64,000 nucleotides of DNA from Escherichia phage phiEC1: the sequence record KY608965.1. One strand, written 5' to 3'. Made by a program: the position numbers and the translations under genes. Positions 1 through 11,501 of this stretch are shown one piece after another. The notes below the pieces were generated by a model. It had not been told where the DNA came from. It was given only the letters and a program-made list of their open reading frames with translations, and searched no databases. Each line of letters opens with the position of its first letter. Positions within the stretch are counted from its first letter, which is position 1.

Positions 1-1084
1 TTGCTTTGCAATTAATAAGGTCGTTAACAGCGTCATCAACTTCTTTAATAGAAGAGATAGCACCTAGTTTATATTTAGTTTCAATTGCATCTCGGAAAGG
101 TTTGTGTTTAAACAAAGGTCCCCAGAATTCTACGCAATCAGTAGCTTTAGCACGCCATGATTTCTCTTCACGAATCATTTCGCCTGTTTCTTCGTCAAGG
201 AATTCGCGAGCATACCACCCGGCTTTAGGCTTAACTACAAAACCAATTTCAGTTGCCATTTCTAGCAAGCCACTGAATGGGTCGATACCGCCATCAAAAT
301 TAACTGTGATCGGGAAAGTAGATTTCTCTTTAACTGTACGAGATTTTTCTGCTTTCAACGTGAAGTCATAACCGGTCAATTCTGTACCTTCTTTAACCTG
401 ACGTTTAGAGATAAAGAATACAGTGTTAGCAGAGTAAAGAATACCTGTACCACCGCCCATAATCTCTTTAGGATATAGTCCGCCGATTTCCATTGCTGTA
501 TGGTTGATTGCAACACATGGAATATCTTTAATAGTCAGATACGGGGTTACAATACGGAAAAGAGATTTAAGTGCCTTAGCACGAGACATATCACCTACGA
601 CTTTCTCGTTCAATGCATCTTCGGTTTCTTTCTTAGATGCAGTATTACCGATTGAATCGATAAAGATAATAACTTTATCACCGCGTTCAATTGCATCAAG
701 CTGATTAGTCATATCAACTTTAAGTTGTTCGACGGACTGAATTGGTGTATGAACTACACGGTCTAAATCAACACCCATTGAACGGAAGTAAGATTCTGAA
801 GCACCGAATTCTGAGTCATAGAACAAACAGATTGCATCTTTATATTTCTTCATATACGCTGCAACCATAGTTAGTCCAAACAATGTTTTAAAATGTTTAG
901 AAGGTGCAGCAAAAATAGTCAAGCCTGATTGCAATCCTGCATTCAGAGCACCACCTAGTGCAATATTCAACATCGGAATACGAGTAGGGACTTCATCACG
1001 ATTATTAAACAGCTTAGACTTAGTCAAGTCTGCAGTCATTTTAGAAGTAGAAGCTTTAATCAGACGAGATTTTAAATCAGACAT
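1..1084 (-). CDS. uvsX: UvsX RecA-like recombinase, N-terminal part (gene runs off window start)
   Basis: Minus-strand ATG at 1082-1084 gives MSDLKSRLIKASTSKMTADLTK..., T4 UvsX-like N-terminus; synteny. Confidence 0.85.
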   Translation of the reverse strand, partial: MSDLKSRLIKASTSKMTADLTKSKLFNNRDEVPTRIPMLNIALGGALNAGLQSGLTIFAAPSKHFKTLFGLTMVAAYMKKYKDAICLFYDSEFGASESYFRSMGVDLDRVVHTPIQSVEQLKVDMTNQLDAIERGDKVIIFIDSIGNTASKKETEDALNEKVVGDMSRAKALKSLFRIVTPYLTIKDIPCVAINHTAMEIGGLYPKEIMGGGTGILYSANTVFFISKRQVKEGTELTGYDFTLKAEKSRTVKEKSTFPITVNFDGGIDPFSGLLEMATEIGFVVKPKAGWYAREFLDEETGEMIREEKSWRAKATDCVEFWGPLFKHKPFRDAIETKYKLGAISSIKEVDDAVNDLINCKA

Positions 1085-1183
1085 TGTATTTTTCCATAGG
1101 CATCATTATATTTTACTCATGTTTAAAAGATAAGATGATTATATACTAAGAGTTATACAGCATTTAAAACTTTAAACAGGCTC

Positions 1184-1732
1184 TTAACGAGCCCATTTGA
1201 TAATTTCTGTAATCAAATTATTACGTTCGCTTGCATTAAATCCTATAACTTTGTTAGCACCATCATGATTAAGTAATTGATACGTTTGGATTTTGTTATG
1301 AATTGCAAACTCTTCAAAATGTGAAATGACTGTATTAAAACCGAATGAAGACAAAGTAATAAGGTCGTCTTCAAAACTTTCAGTCATTTCATTACGTGTT
1401 AAAATAATTGTGAACACATCATGGTTTTGGCAAAGACGAACATAATCCTGTTCATAAACATCAAGAACCGAGTCCGCATCTTGTCGAATACGTCCATAAA
1501 CCCAGTTACTAATATATCCACGGTCTAACAGATAAATCTTAGTAGGGTCTAAATAATTCAACATCGTTTCGAAACAGCCAACTTCATTTCGAGACTTAAC
1601 ATCGAAACGTCCATCAACTGTTCGTTTAGGGAAATCAATCTTTACATATCTTTCACTAATTTCCATTATGTCATTAATGAAAGTTGTTTTACCGGCATTA
1701 TCCGGGCCGTCTACTAAAATAATTTTAGCCAT
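1184..1732 (-). CDS. P-loop small-molecule/nucleotide kinase-like protein
   Basis: 182 aa; Walker A ILVDGPDNAGKTT near N-terminus, shikimate/gluconate/dNMP-kinase-like size; function inferred. Confidence 0.55.
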   Translation of the reverse strand: MAKIILVDGPDNAGKTTFINDIMEISERYVKIDFPKRTVDGRFDVKSRNEVGCFETMLNYLDPTKIYLLDRGYISNWVYGRIRQDADSVLDVYEQDYVRLCQNHDVFTIILTRNEMTESFEDDLITLSSFGFNTVISHFEEFAIHNKIQTYQLLNHDGANKVIGFNASERNNLITEIIKWAR

Positions 1733-1733
1733 T

Positions 1734-2633
1734 TTATTCCTCGATTACGACATCTTCGTATTTAGGTATATTATACGGCGAAGAAATTAAAGCATTAAAG
1801 TAGATGAACTCACCAAGACCTGGATGGAATACTTCTTCAGGATTTTCGAAATATTGAATCTTCGGACGTCCTTTAAGAATTTGATAGTACTCAGTTTTAG
1901 TTGGATTAAAAATTCGAATCAGCGCTTCTTCAGGATACTTATTTCTGTCGAAGCTATTATTTGGATCGGTTATATAAAGCGGTTGACCTAATTGAATTGC
2001 GCATTCAACCACTTGTTCAAAACGATAACACGGGTCACTAATTCGAAATGGATGAAAAATACCATCTAGATGAATAGGAGCCAAATCACCTACAAGACGC
2101 TGCATGACGGAAGGACGTATAACTTTCTGCGTTACGATAATCTTATTACCATCGGCACCTGCGTTAACCAGCACTTCCTTTTGACGTTCATTCAACACAG
2201 TAGTTTGAAGTGAACGATTAACAGACAACATGTCGGTTTTTAAGAATTCATCAATATAAAAACGTGGTTTATTAGGGTCTGCAGTGATATTGAAATTGAA
2301 TTCTACGTCAAAAGCGCCATCATATCCAGTGATATCTGTGATTAGAAAATCACAATCATAATAAGCAATTAATGAATCAACCACAAATTCATTTTCAGAC
2401 CAAAAATATTTACGAGTGTTATATGCGTTATCTTTATACCATAATGGAACAAACTTAAATTCCGGGAAAAGACGTTCACATTCTTTAATATCAGATGCAT
2501 TACGTGGATATGTAATCACATCACCTGGATTAGCACGGTGCAAATGAAGTTGGAAGTTGCCATCCTTAAGGATAGCATACTGTCCAGTTTCATAAGACCG
2601 CATACTCAAGATAGGTACGCGGAAAATAGCCAT
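1734..2633 (-). CDS. hypothetical protein, candidate DNA sugar-transferase of the modification module
   Basis: 299-aa ORF, stop/start coupled to neighbours; no motif I can assign; role inferred from position only. Confidence 0.5.
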   Translation of the reverse strand: MAIFRVPILSMRSYETGQYAILKDGNFQLHLHRANPGDVITYPRNASDIKECERLFPEFKFVPLWYKDNAYNTRKYFWSENEFVVDSLIAYYDCDFLITDITGYDGAFDVEFNFNITADPNKPRFYIDEFLKTDMLSVNRSLQTTVLNERQKEVLVNAGADGNKIIVTQKVIRPSVMQRLVGDLAPIHLDGIFHPFRISDPCYRFEQVVECAIQLGQPLYITDPNNSFDRNKYPEEALIRIFNPTKTEYYQILKGRPKIQYFENPEEVFHPGLGEFIYFNALISSPYNIPKYEDVVIEE

Positions 2634-3349
2634 TAGTCAAGGAATCCTTTAACATAATCAAAATCACGTTCAAACACATGGGCACTTACCATGGTATGAG
2701 TATAATCACCAACTTCTACACCGCATTCGTTAGCGATATAATGAAGTAATTTTCCTTGGAGATAAAAATCCAACTGCATAACAACAGCACAGTTCTGAGA
2801 ACGCATATGGCAGTGGGTATAAAGCTTACCATCACGAATATAATAAGTCACTGAGTCAGTACATGGATATTCAAGTGTTTCGTCCGAATCAAGCAAAGCC
2901 TGATCAGAACTTTCTAGAATTTGGAACACAACTCTTCGAGAGTTAGGTTTCTCTTTAAGTTCTTTTAGAAGAGCTGGTAATTGGGCCACAATGCGAGGAC
3001 CATAGAAAGTGTTGAAGTTCGCAGGCAAAGCATCTGATTTTGGTTTAGAAATGAATTTAGCGACATTAGGATATGCCTTAAACGCTTCTTCTGCATCAGT
3101 ACCACCAGAAATCATAAACTTCCAGAAGTCTTCGGCATATTCATAAGAGATGCGGTTAATACGTGGGTCGGTCATTTTGAACGATGATGGATTGTCAACA
3201 ACTACTGTCATGGACCCGATTTCATTACAACGTCCAATACGAGAATCAGTTACGAATTCCGGGTTTTCTAAAATTTCACGATTGACTGCTTTAAATGCGG
3301 TTTGAAAATCTGCGGCTTTGATATATTTCATTGTGTTATGTTTTCCCAT
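2633..3349 (-). CDS. 42: deoxycytidylate hydroxymethylase-like (thymidylate synthase fold, gene 42 family)
   Basis: 238 aa; motifs KPNSRRVVFQ, YPCTDSVTYYIRDG, HMRSQN...QLDF, HVFERDF parallel T4 gp42 NPDSRRGIMIY, MCTNTVQYLIRD, NMRSND...RNDY, HVYSRHF; Asp at the pyrimidine-specificity position. Confidence 0.75.
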   Translation of the reverse strand: MGKHNTMKYIKAADFQTAFKAVNREILENPEFVTDSRIGRCNEIGSMTVVVDNPSSFKMTDPRINRISYEYAEDFWKFMISGGTDAEEAFKAYPNVAKFISKPKSDALPANFNTFYGPRIVAQLPALLKELKEKPNSRRVVFQILESSDQALLDSDETLEYPCTDSVTYYIRDGKLYTHCHMRSQNCAVVMQLDFYLQGKLLHYIANECGVEVGDYTHTMVSAHVFERDFDYVKGFLD

Positions 3350-3391
3350 GTTTACCTCAATACAATTTATTATATACTCAATTCATAAAGC

Positions 3392-3631
3392 TTATTTGAA
3401 TTTCTTGGCAATGTTGATATAACGTAAAGCTTCAGAATCTATACTTCCAAGAACACTATGAAGAAATGCATCAGCGTAGTATTCCAATTGAACAGGTTCT
3501 TTAATCACTTTAGCCGCTTTGGTTTCAAACAGGCCCATCAGGGCCTTTTTAAGAATTTGTTCATTAGTGTTCAGTTTTATAGTCAAAATCTCTTCATTAA
3601 GTTGGTGGTTAAAAGTTTTTCTAGAAATCAT
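3392..3631 (-). CDS. hypothetical small protein
   Basis: 79-aa ORF; start overlaps upstream stop (ATGA coupling). Confidence 0.45.
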   Translation of the reverse strand: MISRKTFNHQLNEEILTIKLNTNEQILKKALMGLFETKAAKVIKEPVQLEYYADAFLHSVLGSIDSEALRYINIAKKFK

Positions 3632-4797
3632 TCCGGGTACCTCAAAGCGTCATCAGAGTTAGTTATATCAATAATAGATATAGAGTTTTCTGATAACCCA
3701 TTTTTAGATAACTGACGTTTATAATATCTTTCACAATATGTACACGTCGTCCCGCAGATTTCATTAGCACAATCGAAATCTGGATGTCTGAACCACCTTT
3801 TTTCTAAAAAGCCATCTAACAAAGAGGTTTCAATATTTACTGTATGTGAAAACTCAGTTTCGTTTTCAAGAGTGAAAATAGTCTCTAAAGGCTTCCACAG
3901 TTCTAACAAATTACCTTCAAACTTTTCAGAAGCGTATGCTTCAAGAACTTTCAAAATGTAGTCTGTGCTACCTGTACGTCCTGAAACTTTGAATTGAGTG
4001 ATACCAATATCATTATAAAGTTTCAAATCTTGAGGACGAACAAAACGAGTTCTCAACCAGTTAAATGGGTCTGTATCACGAGCTTTAATACAGTGCTGCA
4101 TAGGATATCCGTTTAAGGATTTAGCATCATCAGCTGTAACATCAGTACTATGGAAAATATAGCAAGAGTCACGATAGCTACAATGTGTTGTATACCCTTT
4201 ACCAGCATTAGAACAGAACTCATTTACAAGAACTTCAAATATTATATTGTTCTTATTGCAAAACTCTGCTGCACGCTTCAGGAAAGAAACTGAACGGTTC
4301 TTATGAATTCCGCAACAGACTTTTTTGATGTTATATTGGTCGTGCAAGTATTTGATTTGAGTTACGGCATCAACATGTAGAATTGTTGAAACTTCAATCT
4401 CAATATCTTTATTGACTTCACGAACAATTTCCATAACAACAGGGTTAGCGATAGTAATACGCCATACGCCTATTGACCAAAGATACTGAACATAATCCTG
4501 AATAGCTTTCTTCTTCCACTCAACTAGTTCTCTTTTTGAACCAGGATTTATCGTGTTGAGTGTATAGTTAAAGCAAATACCTAATTCGTTACAACGTTTA
4601 ACGTAGTCTTCTAACATCTTTTTGTCAACGTCAGGAAGCCTAAAATCAGGTCTGGCTGCTACAAAAGCCATTTCTCTTGTAGAGCCATATACTTCGTTTA
4701 TCAAGCTATTAGGATAGGTTTTATTGAGCTCTACGATTTTATCAAGAAGAGCTAAATCAAAATTCGTTCCGATTTTAAAAGTATTCATTTTTTGCAT
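3628..4797 (-). CDS. cysteine-rich hypothetical enzyme (possible TIM-barrel/Fe-S protein)
   Basis: 389 aa; Cys cluster CCGIH...FC...CSNAGKGYTTHCSYRDSC and C-terminal CANEICGTTCTYCERYY; weak resemblance to U32-family proteins, not confirmed. Confidence 0.55.
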   Translation of the reverse strand: MQKMNTFKIGTNFDLALLDKIVELNKTYPNSLINEVYGSTREMAFVAARPDFRLPDVDKKMLEDYVKRCNELGICFNYTLNTINPGSKRELVEWKKKAIQDYVQYLWSIGVWRITIANPVVMEIVREVNKDIEIEVSTILHVDAVTQIKYLHDQYNIKKVCCGIHKNRSVSFLKRAAEFCNKNNIIFEVLVNEFCSNAGKGYTTHCSYRDSCYIFHSTDVTADDAKSLNGYPMQHCIKARDTDPFNWLRTRFVRPQDLKLYNDIGITQFKVSGRTGSTDYILKVLEAYASEKFEGNLLELWKPLETIFTLENETEFSHTVNIETSLLDGFLEKRWFRHPDFDCANEICGTTCTYCERYYKRQLSKNGLSENSISIIDITNSDDALRYPE

Positions 4798-4844
4798 CTC
4801 GCGTTAATTGATGCGATGGTTTTTTGCAGGTCTTACTTAAATTA

Positions 4845-5231
4845 TTATAGATTCGGTTTATATGATTTAAATGTTTCGAATTCGCCTTTATTCATAAGAG
4901 CTTTGAATTCGTCAGGACGCATAGCTTTGTCGTCGATAATCCAATCATATACTGGTTTATGTGTTAGCAAATTATGATACTTCAAACCAATGTTTTCCAA
5001 GTTCTGAATCAGACTTGGGAGAATGTCAATTGCTATACGTCCAGGACCTACTGACTTCATACCGCGTGCAGTATAAAGCGTTATAGTATGCCCTGCATCA
5101 TACAGGGCATTAATGGCGGTCACCATTTCGACGTCTGGTTTGAAGTTCACATAATCACGATTGTTATTCCACTCTGTTATACAATCATCGACATCAAAAC
5201 AAAGATTAAGCATGTTTTCTACACGGTGCAT
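4845..5231 (-). CDS. HAD-superfamily phosphatase
   Basis: Motif I FDVDDCIT, motif II ITLYTAR, motif III HKP, motif IV WIIDDK; ATG at 5229-5231 overlaps upstream TAA. Confidence 0.65.
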   Translation of the reverse strand: MHRVENMLNLCFDVDDCITEWNNNRDYVNFKPDVEMVTAINALYDAGHTITLYTARGMKSVGPGRIAIDILPSLIQNLENIGLKYHNLLTHKPVYDWIIDDKAMRPDEFKALMNKGEFETFKSYKPNL

Positions 5232-6916
5232 TAGATTCGTTCCCATTGATGAGTGATATCGCCACCGATTGGACGATAGGAAACACCAGTTTCTTTATCA
5301 GTTAGTACCCATTTACCAGGATTTTTTGTAATCAGAGTAGCCGTTACAGGTTCTGCTACGTCATAACTAATAGAGCCGTCTTGAAGTACACGGCCCATGT
5401 TACGTAATTGCTTAGTCAGAAGTTCCATACCTTTATAATATGCGGCAACCGCTTTAAGTGGATTATTCTTGAAATAACCACCTAATGCAATCCAAATAAT
5501 TGCTACAGCCAAATGATGATACTCGTTAAACGAACTCATCTTTCCATATTTGTAAACTAATGGATTGATGTTAATAGTCACATTACAAGTTGTTTCATCA
5601 ATAGTAAACTGTCCCCAGGTCGGATTAGCATTGAATTCATCATAACCTGAAACAGCATAAAGCACTTTAGCTTCATCATACAATTTTGGCCCGTAAATCT
5701 TGGTTTCACCAAAATATCCACGAGGGTCGATAAACTTGACTTCGCCGTTATCAGTAATCATAGTATTACTGAAGTTTGGGTCACCGTGAATAACAGAGTA
5801 CTGTCCCTGAGAACGGTTATGATAACGAATAAGATGTTCTAAAGCTTGTTTCAACATTGGCTTCAGACGTCCAATCTTAGTGTAGTTCACGTGTGTGATT
5901 TTACCAAATGAATCAATCAATGGCTGAATGCTTTCACAACGATCAATAACTTTCGTATAGAACTCTTTAGTGAAATCACGGCGAACAGTTTCAGGACTTA
6001 CAAAATAAGTGTCTGTGCTGAATTTCAGTGCATCTAAAATTGCATCAACAATTTGTGGACGAGCAAGACTTGATTTGGATTTAATATATTCAAATGCCGG
6101 CTTACCTTTAATACGTTCCATTTCAAAATTATTTTCATTTACCGAAACTAACTGAGGAACTGAATCTGATTTCACTTTCAAATACCATGAAATCTCATCT
6201 TTTTGAAGAGCTCGACCTTGTTCGGTTAACGCGAATTTAGTTACAGTTTCTTCGCCAATTTCAACTGCATTAAAACTACGATTAAGTTCACGAACTTCAT
6301 GAGCTTTTTCAAGTTTAGGCATATCACCTAAATCAATTAGATTCATAAGCTCTGATTTATTGAATGCACTGCCGTAAAGGAATTCTACGAAATCACGTCC
6401 TTTGCAGTATTCGTGAATTTCCTCGTCAGTAGAACCCATGTAGAATTCCCAGTCTTTGAACTGATAAATTCCTACAACATTACCGCCTGTTGAACCTACG
6501 TTAGTGATATTTTCACCATCGAAATTATATCGACATTCATCACCCTTAACATAGATTGCGTTAACATTCCAAGACCATGAACCAAAATCAGGAATAATAT
6601 CACACCAGTTAACAATTACATTATGGCCATCTAAATCTTTGTATAATTTAGCAAGAGCATAAGCAGAACCATACGCTTCATCAACTGTACGAATAGTCAC
6701 ATTGAACCCTTCTTGCTCACAATAAGCTCGAACAGTTTCAGCAAATTTTGAATGAACTACTACAATAATTTCATCTGCGCCAAGGTCAGAATAAATTGTA
6801 TACAAATTGCTCAGAATAGTGTCTTGCTTATAGTTCACAAGAACTTTTGGAATATGGTGAGTAATTGGATATAAACGAGTTGCCAATCCAGCACCAAGAA
6901 TAACAGCTTTTTTCAT
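5231..6916 (-). CDS. bifunctional sugar-1-phosphate nucleotidyltransferase / APH-like anomeric sugar kinase
   Basis: N-terminus VILGAGLATRLYPIT (RmlA/GlmU-type G-x-G-T-R-L-x-P-x-T); C-terminus VIHGDPNFSN...FIDPRGYFG (aminoglycoside/choline-kinase-type catalytic loop); SD GAGGA upstream. Confidence 0.8.
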   Translation of the reverse strand: MKKAVILGAGLATRLYPITHHIPKVLVNYKQDTILSNLYTIYSDLGADEIIVVVHSKFAETVRAYCEQEGFNVTIRTVDEAYGSAYALAKLYKDLDGHNVIVNWCDIIPDFGSWSWNVNAIYVKGDECRYNFDGENITNVGSTGGNVVGIYQFKDWEFYMGSTDEEIHEYCKGRDFVEFLYGSAFNKSELMNLIDLGDMPKLEKAHEVRELNRSFNAVEIGEETVTKFALTEQGRALQKDEISWYLKVKSDSVPQLVSVNENNFEMERIKGKPAFEYIKSKSSLARPQIVDAILDALKFSTDTYFVSPETVRRDFTKEFYTKVIDRCESIQPLIDSFGKITHVNYTKIGRLKPMLKQALEHLIRYHNRSQGQYSVIHGDPNFSNTMITDNGEVKFIDPRGYFGETKIYGPKLYDEAKVLYAVSGYDEFNANPTWGQFTIDETTCNVTININPLVYKYGKMSSFNEYHHLAVAIIWIALGGYFKNNPLKAVAAYYKGMELLTKQLRNMGRVLQDGSISYDVAEPVTATLITKNPGKWVLTDKETGVSYRPIGGDITHQWERI

Positions 6917-6957
6917 GTTGAAGTCCTCATTGGTAAGTAGGTGTATTGTACACTATT

Positions 6958-7101
6958 CTAGTTAAAGCATTCATACTTTGCTTGTAGTCCAATCATAATC
7001 CATCCAATTACAAGTGTTGGAATCATTACTGGAGCCGTTAAGCTCCAGTAGATAGTCATGACAAGCATCAATAGTAAAAGTCCTATTGTTATTGCTTTCA
7101 T
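6958..7101 (-). CDS. small hydrophobic protein (47 aa), not in ORF track
   Basis: MKAITIGLLLLMLVMTIYWSLTAPVMIPTLVIGWIMIGLQAKYECFN; ATG overlaps the SIS-gene TGA (ATGA). Confidence 0.35.
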   Translation of the reverse strand: MKAITIGLLLLMLVMTIYWSLTAPVMIPTLVIGWIMIGLQAKYECFN

Positions 7102-7733
7102 TGTTCGCCTCGTAACATGGCACCTAGTGCACCGCCTGGATGGAACTTAAGGAAGTCATTAGAGGTAAATCCACGTTCAGACGAAAGGTTGATAGCAAAC
7201 GTATCGATAAGCGCTAACAACAATGTAGTGGACATGGTCGGAGCCAGAGAATTCTCGTCAACCTCTACCGCGATACCGGTACAGAACGTATAATCAAAAA
7301 GAGCTTCGTATTCTTGCGGAATGTCAGGGTTACAATGTAACAGAATCTGTTTAACCTGAGGACGAATCATACGAAGATGTTTAGCAACACCTATCATTTC
7401 TTCAGTCTTACCAGAACGACTGATGTGAACTAATACATCATTGGGTGCAATAAATCCTGCATCCCCATGAGAATAATGCCCAGTGTTCAAGTACATACTC
7501 GGGATACCGAGTGAAGCAAAAGTCTCTGAAGCTTTAGTTGCGATATTAGCGTTCTTACCAACACCTGTAATAATTACACGACTTTCATAATTACTCAGTC
7601 CAGGGCGACGAAGAGTTTCAAGAATAACATTATATCGGGCAGAGTTTTGACTAATTACTTTAGCCATAGTGGCAAGAGATGAAGCTTGTTTTACGATTGC
7701 GTCAATAGCGATAGTGATTGGTGTAGTTTTCAT
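7098..7733 (-). CDS. SIS-domain sugar-phosphate isomerase, KdsD/GutQ-like arabinose-5-phosphate isomerase without CBS domains
   Basis: GVGKNANIATKASETFASLGIPS, HISRSGKTEE, LAPTMSTT, FHPGGALG match the KdsD SIS domain (GMGKSGHIG..., ISNSGES, LAPTSSTT, HPGGALG). Confidence 0.8.
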   Translation of the reverse strand: MKTTPITIAIDAIVKQASSLATMAKVISQNSARYNVILETLRRPGLSNYESRVIITGVGKNANIATKASETFASLGIPSMYLNTGHYSHGDAGFIAPNDVLVHISRSGKTEEMIGVAKHLRMIRPQVKQILLHCNPDIPQEYEALFDYTFCTGIAVEVDENSLAPTMSTTLLLALIDTFAINLSSERGFTSNDFLKFHPGGALGAMLRGEQ

Positions 7734-7773
7734 ATTTCTCTCATTTAATTAGTTGGCCGTCCTTGGCATTATA

Positions 7774-10485
7774 TCAAAAATCGAACATATCGAACAGAGA
7801 TGCTTTCTTCTCGTAATCGAGTTTCGCTGCTGATGTGAATCCTTCAAGTGGTTTAATAAATGTCTTCTCAAGGAGAACAGTGTAGTCCATCCAATGAAGT
7901 ACGTCGTCTTTAATTAAATCTGTGATTTCAGTACCAGAAGGCCATGCGATACATTTATCACCGAACGGGTTTCCATCACGTAAAGGCAGAACGTATACCT
8001 TTTCGCCTTCTACAACTTGTGGAGCATCAATATTACCTTTGATAGCCCGGTTATATGTCAGAATTCCACGAATATGGAACGGACATTTAGGACCAGGGAA
8101 TCCACCAACGTCATATTTAGCAATGTTATTCGCAGAAGATACCGACGCGATGCTAATATAATTCAATTGACGGAATTCTTTTTCAAACTCTTTAAAATAT
8201 TCTTGTAATGATTCTTCACCTTCTTGAAGCATACGACGAATACATTCTTTAAGAGCTTTCTGTACTGCTTTAGGGGTCGAAGATTTCTGAGTCTCTAGAC
8301 CCATGATTTTGAGTTTAGGCTCAGCGTAACGAGTACCTTCCATATCCCACACGTTTAATGCGTAACGTTTCTTACCAGTCCAGAATCCACCAATACCTTT
8401 AGAACCGAGCGGAGGACCAGCGATAGCTTCTCGGTCCATGAACATTAAGTGTTGTTTATTGTTCATGTATTCACACATTTCACGGAAACCTCTATCAATA
8501 GCTGGTTCCATACGTTCACGTGCAAACTTATCTAAGAAGTCTACCCAATGGTTGGTATCACGGAATTTAGATTCACCAACCTTATCAATAATTTTATCTG
8601 CAGATACATAAATGGAGTCTGTATCACCATATAGAACGAAAGCTTCACCTTCTGTACCACAAACTTCATTCAGATATTCATTAACTTTACGTTCAATCCA
8701 CTGTAAAGCCATTTGTCCAAATGTTGTGATTGCAGTAGCATTACGCAAATCATAATAACGGAACCAAACGTTGCCAAGTGCACCATAAAGTGAGTTGATA
8801 AGCAATTTACGGTTAATTTGTGCAGTCATACCTGCAACTTCAGTACGTTGAGCTCTAAACAACATTTCATTAAGAGATTTAGCAGACAACTTTTTAATCT
8901 TTTCTTTAATCTCGTCAGTGAAGTCGAAACGATAATCAACATCTAATGGTTCGTCAACAGAAAGATTAGGATTATGCAATGCCTCTTTAATTATTTCACC
9001 ATTACGTTGAGCCGCAAGCATGTAACCTTTATGTTCTTTACGTTGATTAAAGACCTTAGTGATTTCAGTTGGAACTACACCGTCACGGTCTTTATAATAC
9101 ATCATGCCGTTAGGAGAGCAACTGTACACATCTGAAGGACGTTCAGCGATTGCGTTAATATAATCATGCAGTGGAGCTACTTTAAACGTTCCTGCTATTG
9201 TTTCTGGGCTAATATTCACTTGGCGAATAATACTTGGATACAGAGATGTAAGGTCGAAACTCATTACATATTTGTATCGATTTGGAATAGGTTCCTTAAC
9301 AAAAGCGCCAGGATAAGGTTGAACCGGGTGAGAACGACCTTGTGGAATCACCTTGTTTTGTTCTTTAAGGCTATTAAAAATAATAGCATCCCATGTTTTA
9401 ATTGGGCTAAACACAGATTGAATCTGTATCTTAGCATAATAACCCATGTCCAAACTCAAGTTGATGAACTGACGCTTAGCATCAATTTGCAATACACGAT
9501 ACACGTCGATAATGTTATAAGAAATATATCGTTGGTGATTGCTTTCACGAAGCTTAGAAATAGGACCGTCATATTTCAGTTTACCGACATTCAATTCAAA
9601 TTCTGAAATGTAATCCAGAGAATACGACGGTTGATTGGTAAAAGAGAATTTTTTGTAAAGGTCAATGTAATCAAGAACAGAGATACCGAACAATGTAATG
9701 ATTTCACGAGAACCATACATGTTTTCGATAACTTTAACACGAGTTTTACGATGTGGTGATAAACGTTTCGCAGTAGATTCGCCAAAAATATTCTTGATTC
9801 GGTTATACACATATGGAATATCAAATGACTCAACGTTCCATCCAGTCAAAATGACAGGAGTTTTCTGTTGCCAGAAGTTGAGATATTCCATCAACAATTC
9901 TTTTTCGTTATCGAACGGCATATAAATGATTTTATCAATAATTTCGGATGGAACTTCATCACCACCTTGTTCTTGAAGCTTAGCTGCAATTTCGATAGAC
10001 CATTCTTCTACATTACCATATGGAGAATTCAATAGATCAAATACGTAGAACCTGTCGTCAATTGAGTCATAATGGGTGATAGCATCAATCGGATGTTTTG
10101 CTTGTGACGGCTCAGGAAACCCATCCGGAGATGTTACTTCGATGTCGAAGTTAGCCACACGAATTTTTGTATGGTCGTATTTGATTTCATAGTTATAAGT
10201 GTCAGACAAATACGCTAATTTGAAATCGTCCATGCCAAGTGCTTCAAGACCGATATCTTCCATGCGTTTAATCCATTGAGACGCATCACGCATATTAGCG
10301 AACAACTTACGAGTACACGGCTTACCGTAGATATCGAAATATTTCGTAGCTTGACTTTCCGGACAATGAGCAAACAGTGATGGTTTATATTCTACTTCAC
10401 GAGTACGTTCACGGCCATTAGAATCGATGTAACGTTCAAAAATTGAATCACCAATCTGTTCAACCGTTAAGTAAAATTCTTTCAT
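7774..10485 (-). CDS. 43: DNA polymerase (family B) gp43
   Basis: 903 aa; MKEFYLTVEQIGDSIFERYIDSNGRERTREVEYKPSLFAH...; exo and pol motifs (FDIEV, YGDTDS); T4 synteny. Confidence 0.97.
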   Translation of the reverse strand: MKEFYLTVEQIGDSIFERYIDSNGRERTREVEYKPSLFAHCPESQATKYFDIYGKPCTRKLFANMRDASQWIKRMEDIGLEALGMDDFKLAYLSDTYNYEIKYDHTKIRVANFDIEVTSPDGFPEPSQAKHPIDAITHYDSIDDRFYVFDLLNSPYGNVEEWSIEIAAKLQEQGGDEVPSEIIDKIIYMPFDNEKELLMEYLNFWQQKTPVILTGWNVESFDIPYVYNRIKNIFGESTAKRLSPHRKTRVKVIENMYGSREIITLFGISVLDYIDLYKKFSFTNQPSYSLDYISEFELNVGKLKYDGPISKLRESNHQRYISYNIIDVYRVLQIDAKRQFINLSLDMGYYAKIQIQSVFSPIKTWDAIIFNSLKEQNKVIPQGRSHPVQPYPGAFVKEPIPNRYKYVMSFDLTSLYPSIIRQVNISPETIAGTFKVAPLHDYINAIAERPSDVYSCSPNGMMYYKDRDGVVPTEITKVFNQRKEHKGYMLAAQRNGEIIKEALHNPNLSVDEPLDVDYRFDFTDEIKEKIKKLSAKSLNEMLFRAQRTEVAGMTAQINRKLLINSLYGALGNVWFRYYDLRNATAITTFGQMALQWIERKVNEYLNEVCGTEGEAFVLYGDTDSIYVSADKIIDKVGESKFRDTNHWVDFLDKFARERMEPAIDRGFREMCEYMNNKQHLMFMDREAIAGPPLGSKGIGGFWTGKKRYALNVWDMEGTRYAEPKLKIMGLETQKSSTPKAVQKALKECIRRMLQEGEESLQEYFKEFEKEFRQLNYISIASVSSANNIAKYDVGGFPGPKCPFHIRGILTYNRAIKGNIDAPQVVEGEKVYVLPLRDGNPFGDKCIAWPSGTEITDLIKDDVLHWMDYTVLLEKTFIKPLEGFTSAAKLDYEKKASLFDMFDF

Positions 10486-10546
10486 TTAATTTCCTTTAGA
10501 CGAGTTATTGTCTTTTGTTTGTTGATGAACTTATTATACTCCAAAT

Positions 10547-10560
10547 GGGACCGAAGTCCC
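10547..10560 (-). promoter_or_regulatory. GGGAC-UUCG-GUCCC hairpin between regA stop and gene 43 RBS (attenuator or part of gene 43 translational operator?)
   Basis: Perfect 5-bp stem with UUCG tetraloop on transcribed strand 6 nt after regA stop; not followed by a clean U-run. Confidence 0.4.
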
Positions 10561-10566
10561 ATTGCT

Positions 10567-10935
10567 TTAATTACCAATTGTATATTTTGCTTTCAAAGTC
10601 CAGTCATCTTTCTGTTTAAAAGAGATAACACGGAAGTTATTAGTCAGGCTAAATAGATCTTCACGAGCAGAGTCTTCAATAACAATCAATCCCCAGTCTT
10701 CAAGCAACTGAGCAATCGAATCACGTCGCTGATAGTCTTCACCATCGATATCAACTTGACGTCCGTCCATACGCAGCATTTCTTTAAAGTGGACGATGTA
10801 GTATTTACCTTGCTTTTGGAGGATATGACAGGACTGATAAAGGATTTTATCCTTGTTATTAGCGATGCCCATACGGGTCAAAGTCTCTTTGACTTTCAGA
10901 AAATCTTCAGGGTTCTTCAATTTAATTTCAATCAT
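10567..10935 (-). CDS. regA: translational repressor RegA
   Basis: MIEIKLKNPEDFLKVKETLTRMGIANNKDK... matches T4 RegA; start taken at 4th codon of track ORF. Confidence 0.85.
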   Translation of the reverse strand: MIEIKLKNPEDFLKVKETLTRMGIANNKDKILYQSCHILQKQGKYYIVHFKEMLRMDGRQVDIDGEDYQRRDSIAQLLEDWGLIVIEDSAREDLFSLTNNFRVISFKQKDDWTLKAKYTIGN

Positions 10936-10937
10936 TT

Positions 10938-11501
10938 TTACCATTCCAATGCTAATTTTTTAAATTGTTTTTGTTCTTTTACGTTTTTAGTAACTTCTTT
11001 GAGAAATTCATCAGTGACCATGGCCTTCAGTTCTTTAAGGACTATTGGCAGCTTGTTATTTTTTTCAAGGAGCCGCTTATACTCGGTAGCATCATTCATG
11101 TTGATTGTGTAATGTTTCATCAACAGTTTGATAACTAGTAACTCTGAAGTGTCTTCGACTAGTTTAGCCCATTTAGAGAATCGACGACCACGCGGAATTG
11201 CCGCCATCATATAGTTGAAGTGTGCTTCATCGCTTAATTCAGAACCGACTAAGTTCATCATGTAAACGGCTGGCATACATTCTGGAAACTGGGATAATGA
11301 GTTCTCAACCATAAATTTTGAGTAGTCGACCTGAGCAATTGACATAGATTTCTTTTCATTAATAGCATTAATGATTTTAAAGAATTCATTCTCAGGTTTT
11401 TCTTTAAACATATCAGCACATTTTTGAATCGCATCAGCGTCATTAGACTTCCATGCAATTTGGTGCTCGTTAAGCTGGACGTCATCATCGAATAAGTTCA
11501 T
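10938..11501 (-). CDS. 62: clamp-loader small subunit gp62
   Basis: 187 aa, T4 gp62-like sequence and position. Confidence 0.9.

What the first reader, a model, noticed from the sequence alone, without database searches (positions are those of the whole stretch)
7098..7733. CBS-less KdsD-type arabinose-5-phosphate isomerase in a phage
The 211-aa protein aligns motif by motif with the SIS domain of KdsD/GutQ (GxGKS-type loop, ISxSG, LAPT(S/M)STT, HPGGALG) but lacks the tandem CBS domains of cellular enzymes. A phage has no obvious need for Kdo/LPS synthesis, so the likely role is supplying a pentose phosphate for DNA sugar modification.
Basis: partly seen in the sequence, partly recalled or inferred. 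Interest (0 to 1): 0.7.

Follow-up and report, generated by a model that had tools for sequence, protein, structure and literature searches.

The report
Known phage arabinose-5-phosphate isomerase gene
This is the well-known RB69-type phage gene for a short arabinose-5-phosphate isomerase, which feeds the published pathway that decorates the phage's DNA cytosines with arabinose; it is real but ordinary and already described.

Summary
The ORF is real: 7098-7733 on the minus strand, 211 aa, one SIS domain and no CBS domains. It matches PHROG 5670 'arabinose 5-phosphate isomerase' end to end (5e-116). It is 96% identical to RB69 gp55 (ORF055c). The window comes from a Mosigvirus, 98% identical to phage p000v.

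The five residues I recall as catalytic in E. coli KdsD are invariant across 38 homologues. An AlphaFold model (pLDDT 96) hits only arabinose-5-phosphate isomerases first, including two CBS-less ones. GmhA ranks 27th.

The gene heads a conserved minus-strand cluster: nucleotidyltransferase/kinase, phosphatase, U32 protein, 5-hydroxy-dCMP synthase (99% identical to the tested RB69 gp48), glycosyltransferase and kinase. Published work shows RB69-type DNA carries D-arabinofuranosyl-5-hydroxycytosine. That work assigns gp55 the step ribulose-5-P to arabinose-5-P.

CBS-less isomerases are also known in bacteria. I found no direct enzyme assay of the phage protein in the papers I could open. Verdict: already known, low interest.

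The parts
7098..7733 (-). Single-SIS-domain arabinose-5-phosphate isomerase, 211 aa; orthologue of RB69 gp55 / ORF055c
   Evidence: PHROG 5670 5e-116. KpsF/GutQ 8.5e-32. 96% identical to RB69p055. K60/H89/E112/E157/H198 invariant. Fold hits 2xhz, 3etn, 5uqi.
6958..7101 (-). 47-aa hydrophobic small ORF whose ATG overlaps the isomerase stop codon (ATGA). Function unknown; membership of the pathway is unproven.
   Evidence: Annotated as a hypothetical protein in Bas46 (bas46_0147).
5231..6916 (-). Bifunctional sugar-1-P nucleotidyltransferase (N-terminal) plus kinase-like domain (C-terminal), 561 aa. Orthologue of RB69 gp52:53 and analogue of HY126 AfhE.
   Evidence: Pfam NTP_transferase 1.3e-9 plus weak kinase matches. 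PHROG 4098 1e-294. Role taken from PMC13326640.
4845..5246 (-). Small phosphatase, 133 aa. Orthologue of RB69 gp51 and analogue of AfhF: Ara-1,5-P2 to Ara-1-P.
   Evidence: NCBIfam EcbF-BcbF capsule biosynthesis phosphatase 2e-13. PHROG 1238. Role taken.
3628..4797 (-). Peptidase_U32-family protein, 389 aa; orthologue of RB69 gp50. Its role in the pathway is unknown.
   Evidence: Pfam U32 7.4e-11. PHROG 5757. Distribution.
3392..3631 (-). 79-aa conserved hypothetical protein (RB69 gp49 position)
   Evidence: PHROG 8601 4.6e-51. Position.
2633..3349 (-). Thymidylate-synthase homologue: 5-hydroxy-dCMP synthase
   Evidence: 236/238 identical to RB69 gp48, which is marked as experimentally confirmed in PMC13326640 Table 1. 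Pfam Thymidylat_synt 1.2e-15.
1734..2633 (-). Putative DNA arabinosyltransferase 1, 299 aa. An intact version of the split RB69 ORFs 46 and 47.
   Evidence: PHROG 3891 1e-155. Position. Role taken.
1184..1732 (-). Thymidylate-kinase-like nucleotide kinase, 182 aa (RB69 gp45)
   Evidence: PHROG 761 2e-45..
7774..10485 (-). Landmark only: gp43 family-B DNA polymerase, immediately upstream in the same direction
   Evidence: Pfam DNA_pol_B and exonuclease domain. Annotation.

Best explanation
The gene encodes a single-domain (SIS-only) D-arabinose-5-phosphate isomerase, the orthologue of RB69 gp55.

During infection it would convert host pentose-phosphate-pathway D-ribulose-5-phosphate into D-arabinose-5-phosphate. 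The genes downstream would then process this:
- The bifunctional kinase/nucleotidyltransferase (5231-6916) would phosphorylate it to arabinose-1,5-bisphosphate.
- The small phosphatase (4845-5246) would remove the 5-phosphate.
- The nucleotidyltransferase domain would make UDP-D-arabinofuranose.
- Phage glycosyltransferases (1734-2633, plus a second one outside the window) would transfer arabinose onto 5-hydroxycytosine in DNA. The base is made as 5-hydroxy-dCMP by the thymidylate-synthase homologue at 2633-3349.

The arabinosylated DNA resists restriction enzymes.

Shown here: homology, conserved key residues, fold, synteny and purifying selection. Taken from the literature: the DNA chemistry, gp48 activity and AfhE/AfhF activities. 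Inferred: the isomerase activity of this protein. Also inferred: it acts as an unregulated booster of arabinose-5-P supply on top of host KdsD/GutQ.
For: Sequence:
- PHROG 5670 'arabinose 5-phosphate isomerase' 5e-116 over the full length.
- KpsF/GutQ 8.5e-32 and KdsD 3.7e-30.
- PDB sequence hits are 3etn, 5uqi, 2xhz and 3fxa, in that order; all carry isomerase-type depositor names.

Key residues: the KdsD positions K59, H88, E111, E152 and H193 correspond to K60, H89, E112, E157 and H198. These are invariant in 38 sequences that reach down to 32% identity. That these five are the catalytic residues is from my memory.

Fold: the AlphaFold2 model has pLDDT 96.2. Foldseek ranks 1-9 are all arabinose-5-P isomerase-type structures:
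- the KdsD SIS domain;
- the B. fragilis enzyme;
- CFT073 c3406 with A5P bound;
- the Listeria protein.
These have TM 0.72-0.79 and 21-31% identity.

Orthology:
- 96% identical to RB69 gp55.
- The window is 98.1% identical to phage p000v and 97.5% to Bas46. The Bas46 gene is annotated 'phosphosugar isomerase involved in UDP-arabinose biosynthesis'.

Context:
- The order isomerase, nucleotidyltransferase/kinase, phosphatase, ThyA homologue, glycosyltransferase, kinase is conserved in Mosigvirus, Acinetobacter Lazarusvirus and Pseudomonas Jiangsuvirus.
- In Sphingomonas phage PAU an isomerase lies two genes from a homologue of the 561-aa enzyme (26% identity, E 1e-37).
- The ThyA homologue is 99% identical to the tested RB69 gp48.

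Literature:
- RB69 and DLP3 DNA carry D-arabinofuranose on 5-hydroxycytosine. D-configuration is what an A5P origin predicts.
- The pathway assignment is in PMC13326640, and the earlier proposal in PMC6024577.

Selection: dN/dS is about 0.05-0.065.

Demand estimate (inference):
- 37% G+C over 168 kb gives about 62,000 cytosines per genome.
- That means roughly 1e7 or more arabinose units per burst of 100-200.
- This makes an own isomerase plausible.
Against: - No enzyme assay of this phage protein, or of any orthologue, was found in the papers I could open. As cited, the biochemistry starts from Araf5P.
- The isomerase is not universal in the module. The nucleotidyltransferase/kinase occurs in 373 phage records and the ThyA homologue in 345, but the isomerase in only 275. 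It is missing from the otherwise similar clusters inspected in one Dhakavirus phage (C6) and one Klebsiella phage (HMGUkp2). It is therefore dispensable in some lineages, or those phages use another sugar.
- The protein scores below the NCBIfam family cut-offs because it lacks the CBS half.
Confidence: 0.9

Rival explanations
1. It is an auxiliary metabolic gene for the host cell surface. The isomerase would raise arabinose-5-P for Kdo, LPS or KpsF-type capsule synthesis during infection, and would have nothing to do with DNA.
For: - The closest cellular families, KdsD, GutQ and KpsF, serve Kdo and capsule pathways.
- The RB69 record notes similarity to a capsule-expression protein.
- PHROGs files the gene under 'moron, auxiliary metabolic gene and host takeover'.
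Against: - No Kdo-8-P synthase, Kdo phosphatase or CMP-Kdo synthetase gene lies nearby in the window or in related phages.
- Instead the gene is syntenic with the 5-hydroxy-dCMP synthase, glycosyltransferase and UDP-sugar genes across distant Straboviridae.
- The DNA of RB69-type phages contains D-arabinose.
- A lytic T4-like phage gains nothing obvious from new LPS within a 25-minute cycle (inference).
Confidence: 0.04
2. It is a SIS-family isomerase with another substrate: GmhA-like phosphoheptose isomerase, 6-phospho-3-hexuloisomerase, or an isomerase of another pentose phosphate.
For: - The SIS fold is shared by many sugar-phosphate isomerases.
- There are weak matches to HxlB (E 0.023) and AgaS (E 0.003).
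- The phage clade is well separated from cellular enzymes: scores drop from at least 132 bits to about 117 bits.
Against: - No GmhA family match at E<=0.1, and Pfam SIS_2 only at E 0.068.
- GmhA structures appear only at Foldseek rank 27, with TM 0.54 and 14% identity. The isomerases score TM 0.72-0.79 with 21-31% identity.
- All five KdsD key residues and the Ser/Thr-rich phosphate loops are invariant.
- The sugar found on the DNA is arabinose.
Confidence: 0.04
3. It is a non-catalytic sugar-phosphate-binding SIS protein, acting as a sensor or regulator like the SIS domains of RpiR/MurR regulators.
For: RpiR/MurR/HexR-type regulators appear as weak sequence and fold matches.
Against: - There is no DNA-binding domain, and the protein is only 211 aa.
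- The KdsD key residues (K, 2 H, 2 E) are strictly conserved, which ligand binding alone would not require.
- Regulator hits are far weaker: E 1e-7 and TM about 0.65, against 1e-13 for the isomerases.
Confidence: 0.02

Closest known systems
RB69 gp55 (RB69ORF055c, NP_861745) and its orthologues in Mosigvirus, including Bas46 bas46_0148 and DLP3 gp83
   Same: 96% amino-acid identity, the same length, and the same position directly downstream of gene 43. It has the same neighbours and the same proposed role, Ru5P to Araf5P for UDP-arabinofuranose.
   Different: Nine amino-acid substitutions, none at conserved positions.
Single-domain (CBS-less) bacterial arabinose-5-P isomerases: E. coli CFT073 c3406 (PDB 5uqi), Bacteroides fragilis enzyme (3etn), Listeria protein (3fxa)
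   Same: About 200 aa, SIS domain only, and the same fold (TM 0.72-0.79). 3etn and 5uqi are the best PDB sequence matches (9.5e-25 and 2.6e-22). The 5uqi entry has A5P bound.
   Different: Only 21-31% identity. The phage clade has GVGKN instead of GxGKS and short insertions (RRPGLSNY before strand 1; RP near residue 124). The bacterial enzymes sit in capsule, Kdo or pathogenicity-island contexts, not DNA-modification clusters.
E. coli KdsD / GutQ / KpsF (TIGR00393 family)
   Same: 35% identity over the SIS domain. All five key residues and the motif loops are conserved. The same reaction is expected.
   Different: The C-terminal tandem CBS pair is absent. The product is routed to UDP-arabinofuranose and DNA rather than to Kdo.
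Phage T4 hydroxymethylcytosine glucosylation
   Same: The logic is the same: a thymidylate-synthase homologue makes a hydroxylated dCMP, and glycosyltransferases add sugar on DNA. The genomic neighbourhood between gene 43 and uvsX is also the same.
   Different: T4 uses host UDP-glucose and needs no sugar-nucleotide pathway. RB69-type phages must build UDP-arabinofuranose themselves, hence the isomerase, kinase/nucleotidyltransferase and phosphatase.

Membership tests
KpsF/GutQ/KdsD arabinose-5-P isomerase family (NCBIfam TIGR00393, NF008141) | N-terminal SIS domain with the isomerase-type loops (GxGK, SxSG, APTxSTT, HPGG) | tested here: met
KpsF/GutQ/KdsD arabinose-5-P isomerase family (NCBIfam TIGR00393, NF008141) | Key residues equivalent to KdsD K59, H88, E111, E152, H193. 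That these are the catalytic residues is from my own knowledge of the KdsD literature. | tested here: met
   K60, H89, E112, E157 and H198 are invariant in 38 aligned sequences.
KpsF/GutQ/KdsD arabinose-5-P isomerase family (NCBIfam TIGR00393, NF008141) | C-terminal tandem CBS domains | tested here: not met
   No CBS hit. The protein ends at the SIS/CBS boundary of KdsD.
KpsF/GutQ/KdsD arabinose-5-P isomerase family (NCBIfam TIGR00393, NF008141) | Score above the curated family cut-off | tested here: not met
   110.8 bits against a cut-off of 203.7, and 105.3 against 505. Only model positions 2-153 of 268 are matched.
Single-domain arabinose-5-P isomerases (c3406 / B. fragilis type) | SIS-only protein of about 200 aa with the isomerase fold | tested here: met
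   211 aa. Model pLDDT 96.2. 5uqi TM 0.79, 3etn TM 0.77, E about 1e-12.
Single-domain arabinose-5-P isomerases (c3406 / B. fragilis type) | Ru5P/A5P isomerase activity; tetramer with the active site shared between subunits | not testable with these tools
   Needs an enzyme assay and a structure of the oligomer.
PHROG 5670 (phage arabinose 5-phosphate isomerase) | Full-length match to the family profile | tested here: met
   5.4e-116, residues 3-211 against profile positions 2-210 of 210.
Phage arabinosyl-5-hydroxycytosine DNA modification cluster (RB69 / DLP3 / HY126 type) | Co-location with a 5-hydroxy-dCMP synthase, an AfhE-like kinase/nucleotidyltransferase, an AfhF-like phosphatase and a DNA glycosyltransferase | tested here: met
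   All are present at 1184-6916 on the same strand. The ThyA homologue is 99% identical to the tested RB69 gp48. Synteny holds in other genera.
Phage arabinosyl-5-hydroxycytosine DNA modification cluster (RB69 / DLP3 / HY126 type) | Virion DNA actually carries arabinosyl-5-hydroxycytosine | not testable with these tools
   Shown for RB69, DLP3 and NP in the literature, not for this isolate.
GmhA phosphoheptose isomerase | Match to GmhA / SIS_2 profiles and the GmhA fold as best hit | tested here: not met
   No NCBIfam GmhA hit. SIS_2 E 0.068. GmhA at Foldseek rank 27, TM 0.54.

The most novel reading that the evidence does not exclude
The phage isomerase is an optional, feedback-insensitive flux booster, not an obligate pathway step. 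Having lost the CBS pair, it would flood the cell with arabinose-5-P beyond what regulated host KdsD/GutQ deliver. It is absent from about 100 phages that carry the rest of the module, including Klebsiella, Proteus and Vibrio phages and one Dhakavirus cluster I inspected. That absence would mark lineages that either live off host KdsD or attach a different sugar. This would make presence or absence of the isomerase a predictor of arabinosylation level or sugar identity.
Probability: 0.3. Interest if true: 0.25.

Novelty: already known. Interest (0 to 1): 0.1.

Why it matters
The finding adds little. It re-derives from raw sequence a link proposed in 2018 and developed in 2025-26: RB69-type phages build their own UDP-arabinofuranose, starting with a phage isomerase, to arabinosylate 5-hydroxycytosine and evade restriction. 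What remains is modest. Direct enzymology of the phage isomerase may still be missing. The patchy distribution of the isomerase across phages that share the rest of the module is also unexplained.

Tried and rejected
- Promoter and terminator scan of 1000-11000 found 32 promoter-like sites against 36.6 expected. No signal, so operon structure is not resolved.
- I looked for 'Rosetta stone' fusions of the isomerase SIS domain to a nucleotidyltransferase or kinase among long homologues. P0158, P0239, P0225, P0206 and P0260 carry ROK, aldolase, CBS or double-SIS domains, but no such fusion. Thomas 2018 reports such a fusion in Butyrivibrio.
- I scanned one genome per bacterial species for cellular relatives of the 561-aa enzyme. 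This returned only a 167-kb phage-like contig and a 385-bp fragment. Nothing can be said about a cellular origin, and the pattern method has limited reach.
- PAU gp214 shows no similarity to the window's phosphatase.
- He et al. 2026 and Mahler et al. 2025 are not held. The DOIs I guessed for the papers that characterised the CBS-less bacterial isomerases returned nothing. Statements about those enzymes therefore rest on PDB entry titles and my own knowledge.
- A literature check of the KdsD catalytic residues in PMC10448790 found no mention of them. The residue list is from memory.

Full report
**Observation.** The coordinates 7098-7733 hold one ORF of 211 codons on the minus strand, with an ATG start and a TGA stop.
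- Pfam finds one SIS domain (8e-10) and no CBS domain.
- NCBIfam gives KpsF/GutQ 8.5e-32 and KdsD 3.7e-30. Only the SIS half of those models is matched, so the scores fall below the family cut-offs.
- BLASTP to E. coli K-12 KdsD gives 35% identity over 192 residues (E 6e-33). The alignment ends exactly where the KdsD CBS pair starts.

The only addition is that the gene lies on the minus strand.

**What it is.**
- The protein matches PHROG 5670, named 'arabinose 5-phosphate isomerase', end to end at 5e-116.
- DNA of 5000-11000 is 98.1% identical to Escherichia phage p000v and 97.5% to BASEL phage Bas46. About 150 Mosigvirus genomes carry the same stretch.
- The protein is 96% identical (202/211) to RB69 gp55 (RB69p055 / ORF055c). 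The RB69 reference record already names that gene arabinose 5-phosphate isomerase.
- In Bas46 the orthologue is annotated 'putative phosphosugar isomerase involved in UDP-arabinose biosynthesis'.

**Enzyme-level tests.**
- I aligned 38 sequences: the window protein, phage homologues down to about 40% identity, three cellular homologues and KdsD.
- The positions equivalent to KdsD K59, H88, E111, E152 and H193 are invariant. They correspond to K60, H89, E112, E157 and H198.
- That these five are the catalytic residues is from my memory of the KdsD literature. I could not confirm it in the library.
- An AlphaFold2 model built on a 37-sequence alignment is very confident: pLDDT 96.2, pTM 0.91.
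- Foldseek against the PDB returns only arabinose-5-P isomerase-type structures in ranks 1-9. They are the KdsD SIS domain 2xhz, B. fragilis 3etn, E. coli CFT073 c3406 with A5P bound (5uqi), and Listeria 3fxa.
- Those hits have TM 0.72-0.79 and 21-31% identity.
- Regulators of the RpiR/MurR type follow at E about 1e-7. GmhA appears only at rank 27, with TM 0.54 and 14% identity.
- The gene is under strong purifying selection: dN/dS 0.065 against RB69 and 0.047 against Bas46.

**Is 'CBS-less' unusual?** No.
- The 3etn, 5uqi and 3fxa chains are about 200 residues long, too short for a CBS pair.
- A full HMMER scan of 1.84 billion cluster representatives shows a compact phage-type clade. It has 14 representatives at E<=1e-30, mostly 200-235 aa.
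- Below that is a continuum of cellular relatives. Of the next 136, 30 are 240 aa or shorter and 75 have the canonical 300-360 aa size. Some of the short ones may be fragments.

**Context.** All genes from 1184 to 10485 run on the minus strand.

| Window position | Product | Evidence |
|---|---|---|
| 7774-10485 | gp43 DNA polymerase | |
| 7098-7733 | arabinose-5-P isomerase | above |
| 6958-7101 | 47-aa hydrophobic ORF; start overlaps the isomerase stop (ATGA) | |
| 5231-6916 | 561-aa nucleotidyltransferase plus kinase-like protein | |
| 4845-5246 | 133-aa phosphatase; best match is a capsule biosynthesis phosphatase, 2e-13 | |
| 3628-4797 | U32-family protein | |
| 3392-3631 | 79-aa ORF | |
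| 2633-3349 | thymidylate-synthase homologue, 236/238 identical to RB69 gp48 | |
| 1734-2633 | 299-aa putative glycosyltransferase | |
| 1184-1732 | thymidylate-kinase-like protein | |

The same core order is found in Acinetobacter phage Abraxas and Pseudomonas phage PspYZU05. That order is isomerase, nucleotidyltransferase/kinase, phosphatase, ThyA homologue, glycosyltransferase, kinase. In the unrelated jumbo phage PAU an isomerase lies two genes from a homologue of the 561-aa enzyme (E 1e-37).

**Literature.**
- Thomas et al. 2018 found arabinose on RB69 DNA. They proposed ORF055c and ORF53_52c as UDP-arabinose synthesis genes (PMC6024577).
- A 2021 survey lists RB69p055 with that role (PMC8056088).
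- Lee et al. 2026 (PMC13326640) showed that RB69 and DLP3 DNA carry mono- to tri-D-arabinofuranosyl 5-hydroxycytosine. They showed that gp48 makes 5-hydroxy-dCMP.
- On computational grounds they proposed that gp55 converts Ru5P to Araf5P. The product is then processed by gp52:53 and gp51 by analogy with the biochemically characterised AfhE and AfhF of phage HY126.
- The D configuration of the DNA sugar fits an origin from D-arabinose-5-phosphate.
- A 2026 study of the Durham phage collection reports the same cluster in Mosigvirus NP (PMC13390438).

**Mechanism.**
- Shown here: homology, conserved key residues, fold, synteny and purifying selection.
- From the literature: the DNA chemistry and the activities of gp48, AfhE and AfhF.
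- Inferred: that this protein itself isomerises Ru5P to A5P, and that it adds capacity to host KdsD/GutQ.
- A rough demand estimate makes an own isomerase plausible. With 37% G+C, a 168-kb genome has about 62,000 cytosines. A burst of 100-200 then needs about 1e7 or more arabinose units.

**A caveat and a small open point.** The isomerase is not universal in the module.
- tblastn finds the 561-aa enzyme in 373 phage records and the ThyA homologue in 345 (E<=1e-30). The isomerase is found in only 275.
- Klebsiella phages have 25-26 records with the other genes but none listed among the isomerase hits. The same pattern holds for Proteus and Vibrio phages.
- Among Escherichia-named phages, 176 records carry the enzyme and 136 the isomerase.
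- The clusters I inspected in Dhakavirus phage C6 and Klebsiella phage HMGUkp2 have no isomerase gene.
- Either host KdsD suffices there, or those phages use another sugar.

**Rivals.**
- A role in host Kdo or capsule supply is unlikely. No Kdo-pathway genes are nearby, and the gene travels with DNA-modification genes.
- A different SIS substrate or a non-catalytic sensor role is unlikely given the residue conservation and the ranking of fold hits.

**Verdict.** The feature is already known and named in public annotation and in several papers. I score interest at 0.1.

Noticed in passing
window 3628-4797 (-): A U32-family protein (389 aa, RB69 gp50 orthologue) sits inside the arabinosylation cluster.
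- It has a C-terminal Cys cluster CX4CX3CX2C at residues 343-355.
- It occurs in 221 phage records, all at least 80% identical.
- The host genera listed (about 209 of the 221 records) are facultative anaerobes: Escherichia, Klebsiella, Shigella, Serratia, Proteus, Yersinia, Enterobacter, Providencia, Edwardsiella, and Shewanella among the rows shown; seven smaller groups were not shown.
- Acinetobacter is not among them, although 57 Acinetobacter phage records carry the ThyA homologue and isomerase.
- The Abraxas and PspYZU05 clusters lack it.

From my own knowledge, U32 members RlhA, TrhP and UbiU/V are oxygen-independent hydroxylases. The ThyA-type 5-hydroxy-dCMP synthase is reported to use O2. 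An anaerobic route to 5-hydroxycytosine is therefore a testable idea. Lee et al. label gp50 'sugar or heterocycle reductase', and I found no mention of U32 in their text.
   Followed up: partly
window 6958-7101 (-): A 47-aa strongly hydrophobic ORF (MKAITIGLLLLMLVMTIYWSLTAPVMIPTLVIGWIMIGLQAKYECFN). Its ATG overlaps the isomerase stop codon (ATGA), which suggests translational coupling. It is annotated as hypothetical in Bas46. Why a small membrane-type peptide lies inside a sugar-nucleotide cluster is unexplained.
   Followed up: partly
phage collection; loci L007 (Escherichia phage C6) and L008 (Klebsiella phage HMGUkp2): About 100 phages carry the nucleotidyltransferase/kinase, phosphatase, ThyA homologue and glycosyltransferase module but no isomerase: 373 and 345 records against 275. 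Their sugar donor or DNA sugar may differ, or they may rely on host KdsD.
   Followed up: partly
window 4845-5246 (-): The 133-aa protein is called 'phosphoheptose isomerase' in PHROG 1238 and in RefSeq annotation of RB69-like phages. No SIS or other Pfam domain was found at E<=0.01. Its best curated match is a capsule biosynthesis phosphatase (EcbF-BcbF, 2e-13). The public name looks like a mis-annotation, and the literature treats the protein as the AfhF-like phosphatase.
   Followed up: yes
window 1734-2633 (-) and 5231-6916 (-): Both genes are single intact ORFs here (299 and 561 aa). The RB69 reference record splits each in two (ORFs 46/47 and 52/53). This agrees with the published statement that the RB69 splits are sequencing errors.
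   Followed up: yes
protein P0127 (metagenomic homologue, 369 aa): An isomerase SIS domain (46% identical to the window protein) is followed in the same predicted protein by a SegE-type GIY-YIG domain and a NUMOD3 motif. This is either a homing endonuclease inserted next to or fused with the isomerase gene in some phage, or a gene-calling artefact.
   Followed up: no
window 7768-7776 (-): TGATATAAT, an extended -10-like element, lies in the 40-bp gap between gene 43 and the isomerase; its TGA is the gene 43 stop codon. There is no convincing -35 element, and the promoter scan of the region is not above chance.
   Followed up: partly
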